This document shows positions 223 to 9,874 of a stretch of DNA of 41,156 nucleotides, piece by piece (position 1 is the first letter of the stretch; each line of letters opens with the position of its first letter). The notes beneath the pieces were generated by a model. That model saw only the letters and a program-made list of their open reading frames with translations. It was not told the origin of the DNA and ran no database searches. Source of the DNA: a virus; the IMG/VR virus record IMGVR_UViG_3300017987_000005, positions 1 to 41,156 of that record; one strand, written 5' to 3'. The position numbers and the translations under genes were made by a program.

Positions 223-223
223 A

Positions 224-247
224 TGGAGCTGCGAGCCGGACTCGAAC
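224..247 (-). pseudogene. 3' remnant of a disrupted tRNA-Cys
   Basis: GTTCGAGTCCGGC-TCGCAGC-T-CCA; TCGCAGC pairs with GCTGCGG of the 5' remnant at 845-885. Confidence 0.85.
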
Positions 248-253
248 GAACAA

Positions 254-330
254 TGGAGCCCCGGTCCGGATTCGAACCGGAAAATAACGGATTTGCAATC
301 CGTCCCCTTAAGCCATTTGGGTACCGGGGC
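254..330 (-). tRNA. tRNA-Cys(GCA), intact copy inside the HNH insert
   Basis: ACGGA-TTGCAAA-TCCGT; U73 discriminator; CCA. Confidence 0.95.
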
Positions 331-772
331 TTATTCGTCCGCGTTTCCATCCCAGCTCTTTAGCTGTTCTCCGGCGATGGCAATTAGCGCATACAATTAC
401 GCATTTAGCTATCTCCTTGGAAATCTTATCCCAAGAATATCTGCTCAACTTAGCGCAAATATTAAACGACTTCTTCTTACGGTCACGATGATGAAAATCG
501 AGAACGATAACATCGTCTTCTCCGCAATCTACGCACGGATGTTTTTCAAGATATGTTACGATTTTCTCGAAATTATCCGCGTACAGCCGTCGTTTACGCG
601 CTTTTGCTCTCTCAATGTACTGGTCGCGATATTTCTCATAATGCTTACGAGAGTGTCGTTTATCGCGATAGCAGTCCTTACACTGAGCATGACGCCTCCC
701 CGTCTTCTTGTCGCGGAAAAAGAAATCGTCATCCGACTTCTTCTTCTTGCAAACAGTACAAACTTTGCTCAC
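308..772 (-). CDS. HNH homing endonuclease with N-terminal Zn finger
   Basis: CxxC pairs; CVDCG...LDFHHRD...CANCHRRRT HNH signature; SD AGGAG before GTG; own promoter; stop codon lies inside tRNA-Cys. Confidence 0.88.
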   Translation of the reverse strand: MSKVCTVCKKKKSDDDFFFRDKKTGRRHAQCKDCYRDKRHSRKHYEKYRDQYIERAKARKRRLYADNFEKIVTYLEKHPCVDCGEDDVIVLDFHHRDRKKKSFNICAKLSRYSWDKISKEIAKCVIVCANCHRRRTAKELGWKRGRISPGTQMA

Positions 773-799
773 AATAAGTCTCCTATTAAAGTCATACTT

Positions 800-827
800 A
801 TTGTAGCAGTAATCCGGGAATCGTCAA
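800..827 (-). promoter_or_regulatory. sigma70-type promoter of the HNH cassette
   Basis: TTGACG-N16-TACAAT with extended -10 TG. Confidence 0.75.
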
Positions 828-844
828 CTACAAAACCATAAAAA

Positions 845-885
845 GTTTTGCAGACCGACGCCTTAACCAGTTTGGCTACCGCAGC
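845..885 (-). pseudogene. 5' remnant of a disrupted tRNA-Cys(GCA)
   Basis: GCTGCGG-TA-GCCAAACTGGTTAAGGC-G-TCGGT-CTGCAAA-AC, then breaks off. Confidence 0.85.
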
Positions 886-886
886 A

Positions 887-962: not shown

Positions 963-994
963 AAACAACAAATATAAAAGAACAATAATTGAAA

Positions 995-1142
995 TCCAGG
1001 AAAGTAGCGAATAGAGTAACGCTCTGCTTACGCAGTGCTTGCTCTACCATTGAGCGACGGGGGCATTTATAAAACATCTATAATAACAAGCGCCCCCGAT
1101 TAGAATCGAACTAATGAAGTAACTCTACTCTTCATCACTGGA
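995..1142 (-). ncRNA. Y RNA-like (YrlA-type) copy F
   Basis: Paired ends TCCAGTGATGAAG / CTACTTTCCTGGA; GTTACTTC motif; T arm, closed acceptor stem, then D arm (permuted tRNA order); downstream of rsr. Confidence 0.8.
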
Positions 1143-1167
1143 CATCAATTGTAAAAGAACAAAATAA

Positions 1168-1303
1168 AAGCAGGAAAGTAGCGCAAGAAGTACGTCAGTG
1201 CTGGATTCGAACCAGCGTCTCCCGTCTTACGACGGGCGCTCTAGCCACTAAGCTAACCGTCTGCGTATGGTAGACGAAGTAACTCCTCACTTCATCACTG
1301 CTT
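1168..1303 (-). ncRNA. Y RNA-like copy E (tRNA domain in normal order)
   Basis: Same terminal handle; internal D arm, GTAA-capped arm, then T arm. Confidence 0.78.
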
Positions 1304-1320
1304 TTGAAAGAACAAAAATA

Positions 1321-1470
1321 AGACAGGAAAGCGGCGAGAAGAGAGACGCCCCGAAGGGCAAGTGCTCTACCAACTGAGCTACTCTCCCATATAAAAGCGG
1401 GAGAGGCTGGACTCGAACCAGCGACCACTCGGTTAAAAGCCGAAGTAACTCTACTCTATCATCACTGTCT
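1321..1470 (-). ncRNA. Y RNA-like copy D (permuted, Lys-TTT anticodon-like arm)
   Basis: Handle AGACAGTGATGATAG / CCGCTTTCCTGTCT; TCGG-CTTTTAA-CCGA; T arm; CTCTCCC/GGGAGAG acceptor stem; D arm. Confidence 0.8.
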
Positions 1471-1481
1471 TAATATCAAAA

Positions 1482-1546
1482 AGGAGGCAAGTGTCCGGAT
1501 AGGCACGTTTGTCTGATACGAAGTATCCCATCCTATCAGCACTCCT
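1482..1546 (-). ncRNA. Minimal Y RNA-like copy C (handle only, 65 nt)
   Basis: AGGAGTGCTGATAG...GATACTTC...ACACTTGCCTCCT; no tRNA domain. Confidence 0.7.
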
Positions 1547-1559
1547 ATAAATATTAAAA

Positions 1560-1711
1560 TCCGGGCAAGCGGCGTAAAGAGTTTTGTAGTTTGTAGCTAA
1601 GTAAACTTCAGGGGTATCAGCTACATTTCCCCTGACAGGAATCGAACCTGCTATCTCATTTGTTTCAAAAATGTGTTTAACCGAAGTAACTCATTTACTA
1701 TCAGCACCGGA
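1560..1711 (-). ncRNA. Y RNA-like copy B (permuted, GAA anticodon-like arm)
   Basis: TCCGGTGCTGATAG / CCGCTTGCCCGGA; CATTT-TTGAAAC-AAATG; T arm; CAGGGG/CCCCTG stem. Confidence 0.78.
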
Positions 1712-1741
1712 ATAAATTTCATTGTTAAAGAACAAAAGGTC

Positions 1742-1880
1742 TCGGGCAAGTAGTCGAAAAGAGGACTGTATACGCGTGCTGCCATTACACTATCCCCCGA
1801 TATAAATGGGCGGGGGAGAAGGAATCGAACCTTCACCGCGGCATCCGAATTGCGAAGTATCTCTCTTCTATCAGCACCGA
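1742..1880 (-). ncRNA. Y RNA-like copy A (permuted)
   Basis: TCGGTGCTGATAG / CTACTTGCCCGA; T arm GAAGG-TTCGATT-CCTTC; TCCCCCG/CGGGGGA stem; D arm. Confidence 0.8.
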
Positions 1881-1900
1881 TTCCTAATTTTCAAAAAACG

Positions 1901-2013
1901 GAGGGAGACAGGAACTAGTAGCCCGCATGGTTCAAAGCAATGCTGATTAACGTCTTAGTCAGCAGTGTGCTCCCAGCTCTTATTACTTTTGGGCTTGCTC
2001 CTGCCACTCCCTC
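1901..2013 (-). ncRNA. Candidate structured RNA immediately 3' of rsr
   Basis: Nested pairing GAGGGAG/CTCCCTC, GCAGGAGC/GTTCCTGT, AGCCC/GGGCT, plus a TGCTGA..TCAGCA hairpin. Confidence 0.55.
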
Positions 2014-2020
2014 TCTATTA

Positions 2021-3523
2021 TCACAGAACAATCTTCTTGATTTCCTCCACGGCATCGCTTCCCTCACGGATAGCGACGAGCATGTCGAAAACCTTGTCAC
2101 TCCATCCGCTGATGAAGTAGACATCGTCGTCCATCACAGACAGCGGAGTCGTTCCGTATCCAGCAAGGTCGAAGAAATACGCTTCCGACTTAGGGCTCTT
2201 CTTCTTGTACTTCTTCCAGATTTCATGGAACTGAGTTCCCGAAGCACGGTGACTCACGCTCCCTTCCATCCCCATGTCACTCCAAAGCTGTGCATCAGAG
2301 AAGAAGAAAACACGGTCAGACTTCACATTCTGCTTGATGAGGTAATCAATTACCTTCCATCCGTTCGTGCTGTATCCGACCTCTCCCTCGATGTCATGCA
2401 GACGCATCGTGTTCGAGAGCGGAGTCTTGCTCGTGAAGCGCTTAACCTTCCAGTCATCTCCGAAGATTCCGACAATCGAATTCTTGGTCTTCAGCTTCAA
2501 GAGCTGACCAAGCAGCAATCCGATGTCGTAATGCTCTACGGACGAACGCGGAGCAATCGGGTCCTGCATTGAACCAGAGACGTCACATGCAATGACGTTA
2601 CGTCCCTCTGCAATCAGCTTCATATTCGAGATACTCAGCTTAGCAGCTTCCTCCAGCGCCTCCATGACAAGCTCTGCGTGGTCATTCTTGTGACTCTCAA
2701 TCATACGGAACGCGCTCAGGTACCTGAACGGGAACTGGCGCGAATTCGCAACAGCCTTCTCGTTCGAAAGGTACGCGCATACCATGTTGATGTGCTTCTC
2801 AGAAACACCGGCATCAAGAATGTTACGCAGGTTCCTCAACAGAGCCATGTAACCAACCTTCTTACTTTCAATGAGCGATTCCCACTTCTGCTTCTTACTG
2901 CGTCCGTCCGGCTTCGACAGGATAGTCTCCCAAGTGAACGGGACTTCCAGGTCTCCGTCCTTGACCTTCCTGAAAAGGTCCGACTGTCCCTTGTCTACCG
3001 GCTTCGGGCGGCAGATACGCAGGGCATCACGCAGGGTAATCTCGTAATCCCTGTTATACTTCGCGAACTGATACTCGTCAAACTTGCTGAACGCGGAAGC
3101 AACTCCCTTACGAATCTGCTTCGCTATAGGCTTCAGCTCCTCGCGTCCGCTCAGCTCCTTGTAGCATGCAAGAATCTCGTAAAGCTCATCCGCACGCTGA
3201 ATGACGCGCTCAGTGACGGTCGAAACCAGTCCCTCCGGCGTATCCAGCTTCGCAAGCTCTACAGCAAGCACAAGCGGTACAGTACGCAGGTACATACTCT
3301 CACGAGCATATACCGCCAGCTTTCCAATGAACTCAGGGCTGACACACTTCATCAGCTCCCGCATCCTGGACATCGTGTTCTTCTCAGAACGATAGAACTG
3401 ATTGTCCAGAACAGTCGTGCAAACAAGCGAGTAAAGCTCCATGTCCTCGGTCATCCCGAAGGCATCGCCTCCCGCGAAGTTCTGCACACGCGACTTACTC
3501 TTCGTCTTCGAATACTTACTCAT
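2021..3523 (-). CDS. rsr: Ro60-related TROVE/vWA RNA-binding protein
   Basis: 500 aa; TROVE motifs (YARESMYLRTVP, FDEYQFAKYNR, TWET, YMALLRNLRN, QFPFRY); vWA MIDAS DVSGSM. Confidence 0.95.
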   Translation of the reverse strand: MSKYSKTKSKSRVQNFAGGDAFGMTEDMELYSLVCTTVLDNQFYRSEKNTMSRMRELMKCVSPEFIGKLAVYARESMYLRTVPLVLAVELAKLDTPEGLVSTVTERVIQRADELYEILACYKELSGREELKPIAKQIRKGVASAFSKFDEYQFAKYNRDYEITLRDALRICRPKPVDKGQSDLFRKVKDGDLEVPFTWETILSKPDGRSKKQKWESLIESKKVGYMALLRNLRNILDAGVSEKHINMVCAYLSNEKAVANSRQFPFRYLSAFRMIESHKNDHAELVMEALEEAAKLSISNMKLIAEGRNVIACDVSGSMQDPIAPRSSVEHYDIGLLLGQLLKLKTKNSIVGIFGDDWKVKRFTSKTPLSNTMRLHDIEGEVGYSTNGWKVIDYLIKQNVKSDRVFFFSDAQLWSDMGMEGSVSHRASGTQFHEIWKKYKKKSPKSEAYFFDLAGYGTTPLSVMDDDVYFISGWSDKVFDMLVAIREGSDAVEEIKKIVL

Positions 3524-3559: not shown

Positions 3560-3637
3560 TGGTATCCCGGACGGGACTCGAACCCGCAATCTACACCTTG
3601 AAAGGGTGTTGAGTTTAACCAATTACTCTACCGGGAC
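3560..3637 (-). tRNA. tRNA-Glu(TTC)
   Basis: ACACC-CTTTCAA-GGTGT; CCA. Confidence 0.95.
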
Positions 3638-3655
3638 ACATCCGCTTATCTTCAA

Positions 3656-3730
3656 TGGTAGGAACGGCGAGAATCGAACTCACATCTTAAGCTCCGGAGG
3701 CTTATGTTCTATCCGTTGAACTACGCTCCC
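3656..3730 (-). tRNA. tRNA-Arg(CCG)
   Basis: TAAGC-CTCCGGA-GCTTA; CCA. Confidence 0.95.
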
Positions 3731-3731
3731 T

Positions 3732-3818
3732 TGGTAGGCGAGGCGGGATTTGCACCCGCACGAGCTTACGCCCATAGGATTTTAAGTCCTAAACGTCTTC
3801 TAATTCCGCCACTCGCCC
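3732..3818 (-). tRNA. tRNA-Leu(TAA)
   Basis: TAGGA-CTTAAAA-TCCTA; long variable arm; T-loop TGCAAAT; CCA. Confidence 0.92.
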
Positions 3819-3821
3819 GTA

Positions 3822-3894
3822 TACCCCGAGAGGGATTCGAACCCCCAAATTCTCCGTCTTGAGCGGAGCGCCTATGCCGTTCGGCTACCGGGGC
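3822..3894 (-). tRNA. tRNA-Leu(CAA), short variable loop, no encoded CCA
   Basis: CTCCG-CTCAAGA-CGGAG; 5-nt variable region; A73. Confidence 0.85.
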
Positions 3895-3899
3895 GTATC

Positions 3900-3960
3900 T
3901 GGCGGGGCACTGAGTCATTTCTCCGGCGAGCGTTCCTTCTCGCTTGCGTACGCATGCCCC
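3900..3960 (-). ncRNA. 61-nt mini tRNA-like element
   Basis: Acceptor GGGGCAT/GTGCCCC-G-CCA enclosing three non-canonical hairpins. Confidence 0.55.
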
Positions 3961-3968
3961 GTAATTTC

Positions 3969-4055
3969 TGGTGGGCCGGGGAAGACTCGAACTTCCAACG
4001 TCACTCGGAACCTGATTTACAGTCAGGGGCAATACCAGTTATGCTCTACCGACCC
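3969..4055 (-). tRNA. tRNA-Tyr(GTA)
   Basis: CCTGA-CTGTAAA-TCAGG; long variable region; CCA. Confidence 0.92.
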
Positions 4056-4056
4056 G

Positions 4057-4134
4057 TGGTGGACTCGGGGGATATCGACTCCCCAACCTCTCGGGCTTCA
4101 ACCGAGCGCTCTACCAAAAATGAGCTACAAGTCC
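4057..4134 (-). tRNA. tRNA-Phe(GAA), atypical T-loop
   Basis: CTCGG-TTGAAGC-CCGAG; T-loop GTCGATA; CCA. Confidence 0.9.
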
Positions 4135-4137
4135 GTA

Positions 4138-4213
4138 TGGTGGGCACAGCAGGGCTTGAACCTGCGACTTTCAGCGTGTCGAGCTGACGCTCTTCCAACT
4201 GAGCTATGCGCCC
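4138..4213 (-). tRNA. tRNA-Val(GAC), C33
   Basis: TCAGC-TCGACAC-GCTGA; CCA. Confidence 0.92.
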
Positions 4214-4245
4214 ACAGTAAACTTTGTTTTCAAAGAACAATATCA

Positions 4246-4334
4246 TGGCGGAGCGGGGGAGACTCGAACTCCCGCAACGGAAATCCGTTGTACTGGGTTC
4301 CAGCCAGTTGCCATAGCCACTAGGCGACCGCTCC
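4246..4334 (-). tRNA. tRNA-Ser(GGA)
   Basis: ACTGG-CTGGAAC-CCAGT; long variable arm; G73-CCA. Confidence 0.95.
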
Positions 4335-4343
4335 GTAAATTCC

Positions 4344-4430
4344 TGGCGGAGGATGAGAGACTCGAACTCTCAAGACGCGAACGTCCACTTGTTTTCGAGA
4401 CAAGCTGCTTACCAGTTAGCAAAATCCTCC
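4344..4430 (-). tRNA. tRNA-Ser(CGA)
   Basis: CTTGT-CTCGAAA-ACAAG; long arm; GCCA. Confidence 0.95.
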
Positions 4431-4431
4431 G

Positions 4432-4520
4432 TGGCGGAGAGGACAGGACTCGAACCTGCAAAGCATTGCTGCCTCCTTGTTTTCAAAACAAGTCCCCACA
4501 CCTACTGGGTCAACCTCTCC
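4432..4520 (-). tRNA. tRNA-Ser(TGA)
   Basis: CTTGT-TTTGAAA-ACAAG; long arm; GCCA. Confidence 0.93.
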
Positions 4521-4554
4521 ATATTTGCAATCAATTTCAAAAGAACAATATATA

Positions 4555-4643
4555 TGGCGGAGCGACCGAGAGTTGAACTCGGAAGGGCGTATCTCATCCC
4601 GACAGATTAGCAATCTGTTGCCATACCGTTAGGCGACCGCTCC
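4555..4643 (-). tRNA. tRNA-Ser(GCT)
   Basis: ACAGA-TTGCTAA-TCTGT; long arm; GCCA. Confidence 0.95.
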
Positions 4644-4653
4644 GCGTTATTTC

Positions 4654-4728
4654 TGGCTCCAGGGAGAGGACTCGAACCTCCAACCGTCGGCTTAACAGGC
4701 CGCCACACTACCGTTGTGCTACCCTGGA
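4654..4728 (-). tRNA. tRNA-Asn(GTT)
   Basis: CGGC-CTGTTAA-GCCG; GCCA. Confidence 0.93.
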
Positions 4729-4750
4729 ATATCAGCTAATTGTAAAAAAA

Positions 4751-4870
4751 CGTGCAGCTTCTAGGCGCTCAGTTATTCCCCGACAGGAAGCGCTCCACGA
4801 AATTGTCGGGCCAGATGTCCTCATGTCAAAGCTGCTGGAGGACCCACGATTCTTCAAACGTCTCGCGACG
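4751..4870 (-). ncRNA. Candidate pseudoknotted RNA between tRNA-Trp and tRNA-Asn
   Basis: GTCCTC/GAGGAC crosses GCAGCTT/AAGCTGC; CCCGACA/TGTCGGG hairpin; CGTC-GCGA-GACG tetraloop. Confidence 0.5.
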
Positions 4871-4879
4871 ATTATTGCT

Positions 4880-4953
4880 TGGCAGGCCGTGCAGGAATCG
4901 AACCCGCATAAAGAGTTTTGGAGGCTCTCGTGTTACCATTACACTAACGACCT
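4880..4953 (-). tRNA. tRNA-Trp(CCA)
   Basis: AGAG-C-CTCCAAA-A-CTCT; GCCA. Confidence 0.93.
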
Positions 4954-4974
4954 AAATTTTATCAAAGAACATAT

Positions 4975-5289
4975 GCTAGGCTCAAGCCTGCGTCCGAAAA
5001 GGGGTTAGCCCGGAGCGGACTCCATCGTGGAGTTGTCCGTGAAGGGAAAATTAAGCTAAGGGGTTTCTTTTCGGAGCTGCTGGCTTGCGCTTAGCTTAAT
5101 CCCACTCCTGGGACGACTCCCTGTTCCGCGAGTAATATATCATTACTCGGTCGGGAATCTTCCCATTTGGGATTATCGAACAAATACGATGACGCGCATT
5201 TGCACAGATTCCCTGTACCGGCAATGGCATTACCCATCACGGTGTGGAGGGATTGTCTGGTTGTGCAAATAGAATTAGTCATCATCGTA
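4975..5289 (-). ncRNA. Three tandem rod-like hairpin RNAs (4975-5095, 5098-5174, 5185-5289)
   Basis: Nested inverted repeats: CAAGCC/GGCTTG with TCCGAAAAG/CTTTTCGGA; AATCCCA/TGGGATT with CGAGTAAT/ATTACTCG; TACGATGA/TCATCGTA with ATTTGCACA/TGTGCAAAT. Confidence 0.6.
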
Positions 5290-5341
5290 CTCGTCCTTAA
5301 ACACAAAAGTCCGAAAAGGTACTTTATCAACTTACGCTATC

Positions 5342-5369
5342 ATTGTAGCATATAAAAAAGATATGTCAA
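5342..5369 (-). promoter_or_regulatory. Promoter of the tRNA/rsr/Y-RNA operon
   Basis: TTGACA-N16-TACAAT, extended -10 TG, upstream T-tracts. Confidence 0.8.
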
Positions 5370-7845: not shown

Positions 7846-9015
7846 CTATCCCTTTACAACTGCGAGCGGGGTCAGCTTCTCAACAATCTTCACGAGGTCA
7901 GTCTGCGACTCCATGACTTCATCTATATCCTTATAAGCGCCTGCCGCTTCGTCCAGGTCCTTCTTTCCGCGAATCGAGTGAAGAATCCCCTGGTCGTCGA
8001 GACGCCTCTGCTCCGCAACAAGGTCAAGCTCACGCTGAGCAGCTTTACGCCCCATCTTACGTCCGGCTCCGTGACTACAGGACTCGAATGAATCGCGACA
8101 TCCTTTTCCTTCAACGATATACGACGCAGTTCCCTGCGACCCTGGGATAATCCCGAGCTGTCCCTTCTTCGCAGAAGTAGCTCCCTTACGATGAACCCAT
8201 ACGTTCTTCCCGAAATGGTTCTCAAGAACAGCGTAGTTGTGATGGATATTGATTGCACCATCAAACCCACACGTAGTAATGTCGTTGACAATATCTTTTA
8301 ACGTGTCCATCATAACTCCCCGATTCGCTGCTGCGAATGCGAGGGCATAGTTCATTCCGTCAATATAGAGCCCGGCATCGCGCTCCCCGGTAGGCAGGAA
8401 CGCAAGGTCTTTGTCCGGAAGGTCTGAGAACCATCGGTTACAAAGCTCCAGAGCTTTCTTGTGGAAGAAGTTCGCAATCTTCAGTCCAAAGTTACGAGAA
8501 CCGCTGTGAATCATCAGCCACAGCATCCCTTCCTCACTCTTCTGCAACTCAATGAAATGGTTTCCTCCCCCGAGAGTTCCGAGCTGCTTCGTAGCAGATT
8601 CAAGCTCCTCCCGAACAGGCTGGACGTGGTCAGCAGGTTCGTTGAACACTTCATGTTCAATAGGATTATCCTGATGATTGAATCCAACCGGAATACGGTC
8701 ACGTACTTCCGAAAGAATCTTCTTCAGGGTATCGGTATCGACATCATCAGCTTTAATGTCAGTCTTAACTGCGCACATGCCGCACCCAATATCTACTCCG
8801 ACAGCATTCGGGACAATGACACAATCAGCGGCAAGAACTCCGCCGATAGGCATCCCGTACCCCTGATGACAATCCGGCATCAATGCGATATGACTATGTG
8901 CAAACGGAAGGTTCGACAGGTTCTTCGCCTGCTCGAGCGCTCCCGGCTCAACGTAATCACACCACGACTTTACTGGTAATCCACATCCTTCTTTAATCAC
9001 CCACTTCATCATCAT
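7846..9015 (-). CDS. rtcB: RtcB RNA 3'-phosphate/5'-OH ligase
   Basis: MPDCHQG, VGVDIGCG, LGGGNHFIE, HSGSR, HHNY, HRKGAT, PGSQG, SHGAGR, DEAAGAYK. Confidence 0.97.
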   Translation of the reverse strand: MMMKWVIKEGCGLPVKSWCDYVEPGALEQAKNLSNLPFAHSHIALMPDCHQGYGMPIGGVLAADCVIVPNAVGVDIGCGMCAVKTDIKADDVDTDTLKKILSEVRDRIPVGFNHQDNPIEHEVFNEPADHVQPVREELESATKQLGTLGGGNHFIELQKSEEGMLWLMIHSGSRNFGLKIANFFHKKALELCNRWFSDLPDKDLAFLPTGERDAGLYIDGMNYALAFAAANRGVMMDTLKDIVNDITTCGFDGAINIHHNYAVLENHFGKNVWVHRKGATSAKKGQLGIIPGSQGTASYIVEGKGCRDSFESCSHGAGRKMGRKAAQRELDLVAEQRRLDDQGILHSIRGKKDLDEAAGAYKDIDEVMESQTDLVKIVEKLTPLAVVKG

Positions 9016-9874
9016 TCCTCTCGAATCTATAAATCATTCCTTCTTCGGCCCATCCCGCGAAATCGCTGATATCCTGCTCGTCGTAATTATCGGCATAATG
9101 CATAAGATACATCTTATTCTTCACTTCCTCGGGAAGTCCCTTTAACTCCTCCAATGAAGCGTGAACTGCTCCGGGGAAAAACTGGACATCGTGGAACATC
9201 ACTTCGGACTTATCTGCATACTGGTCAATCAGCTCGGTATCGAATCGAGTATCTCCCGAGACAAAGACGCGACCGTCAATAAAAAGTCCATAAGATACAA
9301 ACGAAGCTTCCCATGCCATTGACTGCTCCGGTATATGCATCGTCCTGAACAGCTCTATTGTCAGGCCATCCAGCTTTACGCTCCAGGTCTCCCTCGGCTG
9401 CATGGTCTTCCACTTCGGTCTGACAATATCAAAAAAGTCCGCCATATGAAGGCACTGACCCCCTCCGTCCGGTGACTCATTCCACTCAAGCCCCCCGCGA
9501 AGCGTCTGGTCCCAAAGTACTCGCTGATACTCCTCGGTTAGTACGATATTGACTTTGGGCTTATCCATGAAACGCATTCCGACGTATCTGTTCATCAAGG
9601 CAATACACTCGAGTCCCCCGACATGGTCAGCATGCGAATGTGTCGGCAACACACATTCTATATTCGTCACGTCCAATCCGGTATTCTTCTTCAGCGCTGC
9701 TGGTCCGGTCATCCCGAAATCGACCATAATATGCTGGTCGCCCTTGACGATGAGAAAATTCGTCTGACAATTCTTCTGTGCAAATGCGGAGCCTACCCCG
9801 ATGAAACAGATATCTAGTTCTCCATCATTCGTCAGCGACAGCTTGTCTGCTACTTTAATCTTTTCCACTAACAC
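8993..9874 (-). CDS. MBL-fold metallohydrolase (RNase Z/phosphodiesterase-like)
   Basis: GVGSAF, VDFG, THSHADH, SGDT, HDVQ, MHY. Confidence 0.88.
   Translation of the reverse strand: MLVEKIKVADKLSLTNDGELDICFIGVGSAFAQKNCQTNFLIVKGDQHIMVDFGMTGPAALKKNTGLDVTNIECVLPTHSHADHVGGLECIALMNRYVGMRFMDKPKVNIVLTEEYQRVLWDQTLRGGLEWNESPDGGGQCLHMADFFDIVRPKWKTMQPRETWSVKLDGLTIELFRTMHIPEQSMAWEASFVSYGLFIDGRVFVSGDTRFDTELIDQYADKSEVMFHDVQFFPGAVHASLEELKGLPEEVKNKMYLMHYADNYDEQDISDFAGWAEEGMIYRFERNDDEVGD

What the first reader, a model, noticed from the sequence alone, without database searches (positions are those of the whole stretch)
995..1880. Tandem array of six modular Y-RNA-like genes: one conserved handle, different tRNA-derived payloads
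Seen: six units downstream of rsr share 5' GTG(A/C)TGA(T)AG...G(T/A)TACTTC and 3' CTT(T/G)CC. Their outer stems differ but always pair, and one position covaries (A:U in copies D-F, C:G in copies A-C). The payloads differ. Four are circularly permuted tRNA domains (T arm, closed acceptor, D arm), one is in normal order and one has no payload. Established: bacterial YrlA Y RNAs sit next to rsr and join a Ro-binding stem to a permuted tRNA-like domain, typically as one or two Y RNAs per locus. Inference: a diversified phage Ro60-RNP repertoire in which interchangeable RNAs act as decoys or tether Rsr to different nucleases or ligases.
Basis: partly seen in the sequence, partly recalled or inferred. 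Interest (0 to 1): 0.88.

Follow-up and report, generated by a model that had tools for sequence, protein, structure and literature searches.

The report
Six phage Y RNAs beside Ro60
A 184-kb phage carries six small RNA genes that share one docking stem for its ring-shaped Ro60 protein but end in different tRNA look-alikes; this is a phage version of RNA arrays that are common beside Ro60 genes in Bacteroidota and probably helps protect the phage's tRNAs from host nucleases.

Summary
Six minus-strand units (994-1880) lie between rsr (Ro60) and tRNA-Glu in a phage tRNA operon. They share a handle found nowhere else in the genome. Payloads: three clean permuted tRNA domains, one degenerate permuted, one normal-order, one bare hairpin. 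The variable handle pair covaries across 529 homologous units (97.7% paired vs 68% shuffled).

Correction: six is not a phage speciality. The same handle forms arrays of 3-8 at 48 of 80 rsr loci (nearly all Bacteroidota), with the same payload classes, and was found only beside rsr. This scan has reported the family before on other DNA.

All units score below Rfam's YrlA cut-off and carry UGA(U)A instead of CGAA, so they work like Y RNAs but are not strict YrlA members.

Additions: the 'variable' hairpin is usually a real anticodon arm (65/94 vs 12 shuffled). One unit re-permutes into a perfect tRNA-Lys(UUU). BoxA-like sites sit in four spacers.

Most likely role: Rsr-bound tRNA mimics that engage host PNPase and tRNA-cutting or repair enzymes. 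Expression, binding and partner specificity are untested. New variant of a known kind.

The parts
2021..3523 (-). rsr: Ro60 orthologue, 500 aa, TROVE + vWA with MIDAS (D314-x-S316-x-S318, T386, D410)
   Evidence: Pfam TROVE E 3.9e-34; family profile hits phage phiLo Ro60 9KOP/9L5Y E 1.5e-43, Xenopus and Deinococcus Ro60; 25% identical to phiLo Ro60 with K141, K142, R169, R173, R178 matched by basic residues
1893..2018 (-). stable long hairpin directly after the rsr stop, followed by a U run; lacks the handle motif (3' UTR, processing or attenuation element, or a seventh RNA of another kind)
   Evidence: MFE -47.3, z -3.78
1742..1880 (-). unit A: handle (C:G) + permuted tRNA with anticodon-like arm (UCG), T arm, 7-bp acceptor whose loop starts with C-CCA, D arm
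   Evidence: Rfam YrlA 20.8 bits; re-permuted halves give a tRNA-Arg(UCG)-like cloverleaf
1560..1711 (-). unit B: handle (C:G) + anticodon arm (GAA-like loop), T arm, 6-bp closed acceptor, degenerate D arm
   Evidence: Rfam tRNA 27.3 bits over model 9-63, YrlA 18.5 bits; fold
1482..1546 (-). unit C: handle (C:G) only, 65-nt hairpin (YrlB/Yrn2-like)
   Evidence: fold; model R1 hit 38.8 bits, but this unit was in the training set
1319..1472 (-). unit D: handle (A:U) + complete circularly permuted tRNA-Lys(UUU) opened between positions 26 and 27, plus a UUCG hairpin
   Evidence: Rfam YrlA 40.6 bits, E 2.8e-7; re-permutation gives a perfect 76-nt cloverleaf; miscalled as an ordinary tRNA-Lys by ARAGORN
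1166..1305 (-). unit E: handle (A:U) + normal-order D arm, anticodon-type stem capped by a GUAA tetraloop, T arm, 4-bp acceptor remnant (Yrn1-like order)
   Evidence: Rfam tRNA 44 bits; ARAGORN tRNA-???; class 'normal'
994..1143 (-). unit F: handle (A:U) + T arm, 7-8-bp acceptor with long AU-rich loop, D arm, GUAA hairpin; no anticodon arm
   Evidence: Rfam YrlA 25.7 bits over the whole model; z -4.03
1723..1735 (-). boxA-like antitermination site before unit B
   Evidence: 4 matches in the window, all in array spacers, 0.10 expected
1303..1315 (-). boxA-like site between units D and E
1150..1162 (-). boxA-like site between units E and F
973..985 (-). boxA-like site between unit F and tRNA-Glu
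3560..4953 (-). 13 tRNA genes upstream of rsr in the same orientation
   Evidence: ARAGORN and Rfam
4802..5369 (-). sigma-70-type promoter-like sites (5369-5342, 4985-4956, 4829-4802) that could drive the tRNA-rsr-Y-RNA operon
   Evidence: consensus scan; not more sites than chance overall, so a lead only
7846..9015 (-). RtcB RNA ligase, plausible functional partner
   Evidence: Pfam RtcB E 4.4e-114

Best explanation
The six units are genes for Y-RNA-type partners of the phage's own Ro60 (Rsr). (1) They are transcribed with the tRNAs and rsr as one antiterminated stable-RNA operon and cut out as single RNAs (inferred from orientation and boxA-like spacers). (2) Each folds its 5' and 3' ends into the same handle: outer stem, bulged U, a G:C pair, one freely covarying pair, an internal loop and an inner stem. 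Rsr binds this handle on the outside of its ring (structure shown by covariation; binding inferred from homology and strict gene linkage). (3) The other end presents a tRNA-shaped module, or nothing, to enzymes that read tRNA. The most likely job is to protect and recycle the phage's tRNA supply: the RNPs occupy or damp host PNPase, as shown for Thermus phage phiLo, and place Rsr where tRNA-cutting and repair enzymes such as the phage RtcB act (inferred). The array type is ancestral to this Rsr clade and common at Bacteroidota rsr loci. This phage's six copies share lineage-specific handle changes, so they were expanded or homogenised within its lineage.
For: Handle unique to the six sites in the genome. 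With the register chosen without using them, the G:C pair and the variable pair emerge in 86% and 83% of 329 homologous units vs 16-19% and 5-7% after shuffling. Variable pair 97.7% paired in 529 units, as C:G, U:A, U:G, G:C and A:U, vs 68% shuffled. All 17 model hits in five whole genomes lie within about 3 kb of an rsr on its strand, including one beside a second rsr paralogue; 80 other Flavobacteriaceae genomes gave neither gene. All 93 hits in viral rsr loci are on the rsr strand. Sub-threshold YrlA hits on the four permuted units. Five of eight basic RNA-contact residues of phiLo Ro60 are conserved. phiLo Ro60 binds Yrl1/Yrl2 and slows host PNPase by about 70-75% (PMC12135203). This phage has RtcB, about 43 tRNAs, tmRNA and an RNase P-like RNA and no PNPase-family gene was found. 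BoxA-like sites.
Against: The 5' motif is UGAA or UGAUA, not CGAA; C-to-U and A-to-U changes in that motif each weakened phiLo Ro60 binding about threefold. All six score below the range of family members on a handle matrix (6-17 bits vs 1st percentile 23.6; part of this is a one-base register shift), and the hairpin-trained model found only unit C in the window. Units A and B fold no better than shuffles. Nothing here shows transcripts, binding or which enzyme is the partner.
Confidence: 0.8

Rival explanations
1. Anticodon bait: the permuted units are nuclease-resistant full tRNA mimics that display real anticodon loops (here Lys UUU, a Phe-like GAA loop, Arg-like UCG) to soak up host anticodon nucleases used in abortive infection, with RtcB re-sealing them on the Rsr ring. 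This is a sharper version of the best explanation, not exclusive of it.
For: In 94 distinct permuted homologues, 65 have a Y-U-N-N-N-R-N loop in exact tRNA register (shuffles: mean 12, max 23) and 31 are identical to real tRNA loops (shuffles 1.4); 31 different triplets, led by Asn GUU, Lys UUU, the stop-reading UUA and Asp GUC. Position profile U33 69%, R37 90%. Unit D is a complete permuted tRNA-Lys(UUU), the tRNA that PrrC cleaves (own knowledge; PMC7790460 cites it). Competitive inhibition of an anticodon nuclease by YrlA was proposed in PMC7790460.
Against: Anticodon identity is not conserved, which recent capture from tRNA genes followed by drift explains equally well. Three of the six units (C, E, F) have no anticodon loop. 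The arrays are common on bacterial chromosomes, where a counter-defence role is less obvious. Salmonella YrlA is not cut by the anticodon nuclease. The counts are not corrected for relatedness.
Confidence: 0.25
2. Redundant dosage: all six RNAs do the same thing (stabilise and gate Rsr, resist nucleases through a tRNA fold). The payloads differ only because handles keep recombining with neighbouring tRNA genes in a tRNA-rich operon.
For: Copy number varies from 1 to 8 and composition varies between loci; L235 holds a duplicated block of four units; unit B looks degenerate; payloads carry many different anticodons.
Against: The same payload classes recur in distant genomes (hairpin 113, permuted 160, normal-order 23, T-only 118), 71 of 159 loci hold at least three classes, and four Bacteroidota-type loci hold the same three classes as the window, which suggests class-specific roles.
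Confidence: 0.3
3. Split-tRNA precursors: RNase P (host, or the phage's own RNase P-like RNA) opens the 7-bp acceptor loops of A, D and F, exposing an NCCA end on a two-piece RNA that can be charged with an amino acid.
For: 7-bp acceptors in A, D and F; A encodes CCA right after the discriminator; M. smegmatis YrlA is cut by RNase P and gets CCA (PMC4201824); RNase P-like RNA in this genome, E 2.5e-19, below the family cut-off.
Against: NCCA in only 5 of 59 long-acceptor units; no CCA-adding enzyme found in the phage; the phage already has ordinary tRNA-Lys(UUU) and tRNA-Phe genes; the bulky handle at the 26/27 junction argues against decoding.
Confidence: 0.15
4. Decayed tRNA genes or DNA-level repeats with no RNA function.
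For: Located in a tRNA cluster that also holds a broken tRNA-Cys; ARAGORN calls two units tRNAs.
Against: A non-tRNA handle with compensatory changes, strand specificity and strict linkage to rsr across hundreds of loci.
Confidence: 0.03

Closest known systems
YrlA of Salmonella Typhimurium, Mycobacterium smegmatis and mycobacteriophages (Rfam RF02553; Chen et al. 2014, PMC4201824; structure in bioRxiv 10.1101/312249)
   Same: Within 4 kb of rsr on the same strand; long terminal stem; UAC after the inner stem; T arm - closed acceptor - D arm order in units A, D, F (B degenerate); proposed origin from dimeric pre-tRNA fits.
   Different: 5' motif UGA(U)AG rather than GNCGAAN0-1G; conserved 3' strand with a covarying pair; scores 18-41 bits vs cut-off 69; an anticodon stem-loop is present, whereas the Salmonella YrlA structure lacks the anticodon loop; six RNAs; no RtcR.
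YrlB (Salmonella, M. smegmatis) and Yrn2 (D. radiodurans) hairpin Y RNAs; Yrn1 of D. radiodurans (PMC4201824)
   Same: Unit C is a payload-free hairpin like YrlB/Yrn2; unit E has D, anticodon-type and T arms in normal order with a non-canonical loop like Yrn1; Yrn1/Yrn2 are co-transcribed with a tRNA.
   Different: Here all topologies ride on one handle sequence in one array; Yrn1/Yrn2 use a metazoan-type handle.
Thermus phage phiLo Ro60 with Yrl1 and Yrl2 (PMC12135203; PDB 9KOP, 9L5Y)
   Same: Phage-encoded Ro60, closest solved structure to this Rsr family; stem-bulge-stem RNAs beside the gene; no phage PNPase; key basic residues conserved.
   Different: Two RNAs upstream with a CGAA motif; 25% protein identity; the handle model gave no hit in the phiLo locus; no tRNA-like arrays described.
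Uncatalogued Y-RNA arrays at Bacteroidota rsr loci
   Same: Same handle architecture, same UUACUUCG core, same payload classes, arrays of 3-8, often mixed with tRNA genes; Rsr 44-49% identical and in the same supported clade.
   Different: Family consensus is CGUAG and 3' (G/U/A)UU; all six window units have U for C, an A two positions later and C on the 3' side; boxA-like spacers are absent from the homologues (1 of 488); Shine-Dalgarno leaders and sigma-70-type sites suggest a non-Bacteroidota host.

Membership tests
YrlA (RF02553) | Encoded within 4 kb of a Ro60 orthologue on the same strand | tested here: met
   units lie 140-1030 nt downstream of rsr, minus strand
YrlA (RF02553) | 5' motif GNCGAAN0-1G | tested here: not met
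   E and F read GAUGAAG (one mismatch); A-D read G(C/A)UGAUAG (two mismatches)
YrlA (RF02553) | Rfam gathering score 69 bits | tested here: not met
   40.6, 25.7, 20.8 and 18.5 bits for D, F, A, B; no hit for C, E
YrlA (RF02553) | T arm, closed acceptor stem, D arm in permuted order | tested here: met
   met in A, D, F; degenerate D arm in B; absent in C and E
YrlA (RF02553) | Conserved YUAY before the variable region | tested here: met
   UUAC in B, D, E, F; AUAC in A and C
YrlA (RF02553) | Pseudouridine 55 and dihydrouridine modifications; L-shaped fold | not testable with these tools
   T-loop UUCGA and D-loop GG are present in sequence; modification needs RNA
Y RNA (general) | 5' and 3' ends pair into a stem with a bulge and internal loop | tested here: met
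   all six; covariation and shuffle controls
Y RNA (general) | Discrete RNA of about 65-150 nt is made | not testable with these tools
   no RNA holder listed
Y RNA (general) | Bound by Ro60/Rsr | not testable with these tools
   indirect only: strict linkage to rsr and conserved basic residues
Ro60/Rsr protein | TROVE (HEAT-repeat) domain plus vWA domain with MIDAS | tested here: met
   Pfam TROVE over cut-off; DxSxS, T386, D410 invariant in the family; PDB hits are all Ro60 proteins
Canonical tRNA gene | 7-bp acceptor formed by the two ends, 7-nt anticodon loop, 3' NCCA | tested here: not met
   ARAGORN calls at 1397-1469 and 1192-1262 have mismatched acceptors or a 6-nt loop; D is a tRNA only after re-permutation
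rsr-yrlBA-rtcBA operon (RtcR-regulated) | rtcB, rtcA and divergent rtcR adjacent to rsr | tested here: not met
   rtcB is 4.3 kb upstream; the intervening region holds tRNAs and small ORFs, and those scanned gave no RtcA or RtcR hit

The most novel reading that the evidence does not exclude
Ro60 carries an exchangeable set of complete, circularly permuted tRNA mimics that keep real anticodon loops (the 'V' hairpin of YrlA-type RNAs is often an anticodon arm), refreshed by recombination with tRNA genes; in this phage they act as baits or repair scaffolds against host anticodon nucleases, with different array members serving different enzymes.
Probability: 0.22. Interest if true: 0.78.

Novelty: new variant of a known kind. 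Interest (0 to 1): 0.5.

Why it matters
What bacterial and phage Y RNAs do with their tRNA-like domain is an open question (PMC4201824; bioRxiv 10.1101/312249). One handle carrying three topologies in one locus is a natural swap experiment: the constant part should bind Rsr, the variable part should choose the partner. The family is missed by Rfam and parts of it are annotated as tRNA genes, so known Y-RNA numbers are underestimated and some phage tRNA counts are wrong. If anticodon loops are functional, the arrays would be an RNA-based counter to tRNA-cutting immunity. The locus itself is one of many examples, and its host is uncultured, which limits its value as the test system.

Tried and rejected
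Rfam: no family reaches its cut-off on the units except tRNA; none on seven homologous arrays either. Sequencing runs: no RNA holder listed; DNA contigs only confirm the assembly. Two DNA pattern scans of viral contigs returned mostly single matches; I checked none further and used none. Model R1, trained on short hairpin units, found only unit C in the window and genome, so it is no test for long, divergent units. The pair count on alignment A3 (94% paired) is partly circular because rows were picked for pairing; searches are the non-circular tests. My first payload classifier missed D arms and was replaced. No PNPase/RNase PH, CCA-adding enzyme, Rnl2-type ligase or polynucleotide kinase found in the phage. 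The Rsr tree is a quick tree only; it gives no donor or direction. Payloads match no particular tRNA of this phage closely, so recent copying from its own tRNAs is not shown. Literature: searches found no description of Bacteroidota-type arrays, but the Wolin-lab reviews, the Bacteroides Ro60 paper and the supplement of Chen 2014 were not held, so prior mention cannot be excluded. The idea that six copies is a phage-specific expansion was rejected.

Full report
Setting. The window is the first 41 kb of a complete 183,648-nt phage genome with direct terminal repeats. The genome carries about 43 tRNA genes covering all amino acids, a tmRNA and an RNase P-like RNA, all on the minus strand. The finding lies inside this tRNA cluster, between a 500-aa ORF (2021-3523) and tRNA-Glu (887-962). 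The ORF is a Ro60/Rsr orthologue: Pfam TROVE E 3.9e-34, an intact MIDAS motif, and a family profile whose only PDB matches are Ro60 proteins, best the Thermus phage phiLo protein. RtcB lies 4.3 kb upstream.

Observation. Six units are present as described: A 1880-1742, B 1711-1560, C 1546-1482, D 1472-1319, E 1305-1166, F 1143-994. The handle pattern has no other match in the genome. Each unit folds its ends into an outer stem of 4-8 bp, a bulged U, a G:C pair, a variable pair (C:G in A-C, A:U in D-F), an internal loop, and an inner stem ending in UAC-UUC. Three DNA assemblies hold the region on single contigs without differences.

Payloads. A, D and F have T arm, closed 7-bp acceptor and D arm. 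B has a T arm, a 6-bp acceptor and a D-like hairpin without GG. E has D arm, an anticodon-type stem closed by GUAA and a T arm in normal order, as in D. radiodurans Yrn1. C is a bare hairpin like YrlB and Yrn2. Joining the halves of D in tRNA order gives a perfect 76-nt tRNA-Lys(UUU) cloverleaf; A gives an Arg(UCG)-like cloverleaf and encodes CCA after the discriminator. D is thus a whole tRNA opened between positions 26 and 27, with the handle attached there. ARAGORN misreads D and E as tRNA genes.

Homologues. I fetched 240 loci around related rsr genes. A generalised handle pattern gave 649 hits on the rsr strand and 26 on the other. Among 80 bacterial loci, nearly all Bacteroidota, 48 have at least three high-confidence units and 7 have six or more, within 4 kb and despite contig ends. 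Viral loci mostly have 0-3, some 5 or more. Payload classes recur: 160 permuted, 118 T-only, 113 hairpin, 23 normal-order; L236, L247, L371 and L378 hold the same three classes as the window. So a modular array is a family trait, not an invention of this phage. Six is high for a phage but within the bacterial range. The system is patchy: 80 other Flavobacteriaceae genomes gave neither rsr nor the RNA. In five whole genomes all 17 model hits lay beside an rsr, one of them beside a second paralogue (only the best 150 candidates per genome were scored).

Covariation. When the pairing register is set by the outer and inner stems alone, the G:C pair appears in 86% and the variable pair in 83% of 329 units, against 16-19% and 5-7% after shuffling the downstream sequence. 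Among 529 units the variable position is paired in 97.7% (five pair types) against 68% in shuffles. The tool count on 47 hairpin units agrees but is partly circular. None of these counts corrects for relatedness.

What is particular here. All six window units share changes from the family consensus: U for C at the start of the loop motif, an A two positions later, and C on the facing strand. The nearest relative (Rsr 79-80% identical, L314) shares only the first change. This points to expansion or homogenisation within the phage lineage, probably with its Rsr (inference). Four spacers contain a boxA-like site (4 found, 0.10 expected); similar sites precede the first tRNA, another tRNA and the tmRNA. 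By analogy with rRNA operons (own knowledge) this suggests Nus-dependent antitermination of a long stable-RNA transcript. Homologous arrays lack it (1 of 488). Purine-rich leaders and sigma-70-type sites suggest the host is not a Bacteroidota (inference).

Anticodon arms across the family. Of 94 distinct permuted units with a hairpin before the T arm, 65 have a Y-U-N-N-N-R-N loop in tRNA register (shuffles: mean 12, max 23) and 31 equal real tRNA loops (1.4 expected), with 31 different triplets; the column profile is that of tRNA positions 32-48. Chen et al. called this hairpin 'V', and the Salmonella YrlA structure lacks an anticodon loop. Either the loops are kept for a purpose, or they are relics of repeated capture from tRNA genes, in line with the dimeric pre-tRNA origin proposed for YrlA. 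The data here do not decide.

Mechanism. Shown: sequence, structure, linkage to rsr, payload anatomy. Inferred: transcription, processing, Rsr binding, partners. The best precedent is phiLo, whose Ro60 binds two neighbouring RNAs through a stem-bulge-stem and slows host PNPase (PMC12135203); five of eight basic contact residues are conserved here, including the two strongest, and this phage too has no PNPase. I put Rsr-binding Y-type RNAs serving RNA protection and repair at about 0.8, distinct partners per payload at about 0.4, anticodon bait at about 0.25.

Comparison and novelty. The units work like Y RNAs but fail two YrlA criteria (5' motif, Rfam cut-off), so I do not file them as YrlA. 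Phage Y RNAs and several Y RNAs per locus are known (PMC4201824, PMC12135203); ROT/TROVE with a tRNA-like partner is noted in large phages (PMC7824862). I found no paper on arrays with this handle, but key reviews were not held. This scan has already reported the family in other genomes, including a phage with 16 copies (those notes are leads, and I tested the family claim myself). Verdict: new variant of a known kind, interest 0.5.

Noticed in passing
window 223-886 (-): A tRNA-Cys(GCA) appears split by an insertion: 5' half at 886-841, then a sigma-70-type site (827-800), an HNH endonuclease gene (772-308, phrog_2255 E 4e-33), an intact tRNA-Cys (330-254) and a 3' remnant (250-223) whose acceptor strand pairs with the 5' half. 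Looks like a homing endonuclease that brings a replacement tRNA.
   Followed up: partly
window 4057-4134 (-): Second tRNA-Phe(GAA) with a deviant T loop, found by Rfam (54.5 bits) but missed by ARAGORN; its anticodon loop resembles that of unit B.
   Followed up: partly
window 1893-2018 (-): Very stable hairpin after the rsr stop (z -3.78) without the handle motif; L314 has an unrelated stem at the same place.
   Followed up: partly
window 8993-9874 (-): Metallo-beta-lactamase-fold protein with a strong Apyc1 (anti-Pycsar) Pfam hit, overlapping the start of rtcB; could also be an RNase Z-like tRNA-processing enzyme.
   Followed up: no
G000:C1:182484-182683 (-) and 170418-170775 (-): Short RNase P-like RNA (61 bits, below cut-off) between tRNA-Thr genes, and a tmRNA (100.8 bits) that ARAGORN misses; boxA-like sites lie just upstream of the tmRNA.
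   Followed up: partly
L237:5579, L245:5826, L297:5871, L363:5811 and similar: A recurring payload class in Bacteroidota, usually among the first units after rsr: G-rich 5' strand, variable hairpin, T arm and C-rich 3' strand, with no D arm; not present in the window.
   Followed up: no
L235:5641-7300: Rapidithrix thailandica has a block of four units duplicated in tandem, with changed payload loops between the copies: direct evidence of array growth by duplication.
   Followed up: no
L234-L313: Five permuted units show the triplet UUA (would read UAA stop) and others UCA or CUA at the anticodon position; may be drift or may relate to release-factor or suppressor mimicry.
   Followed up: no
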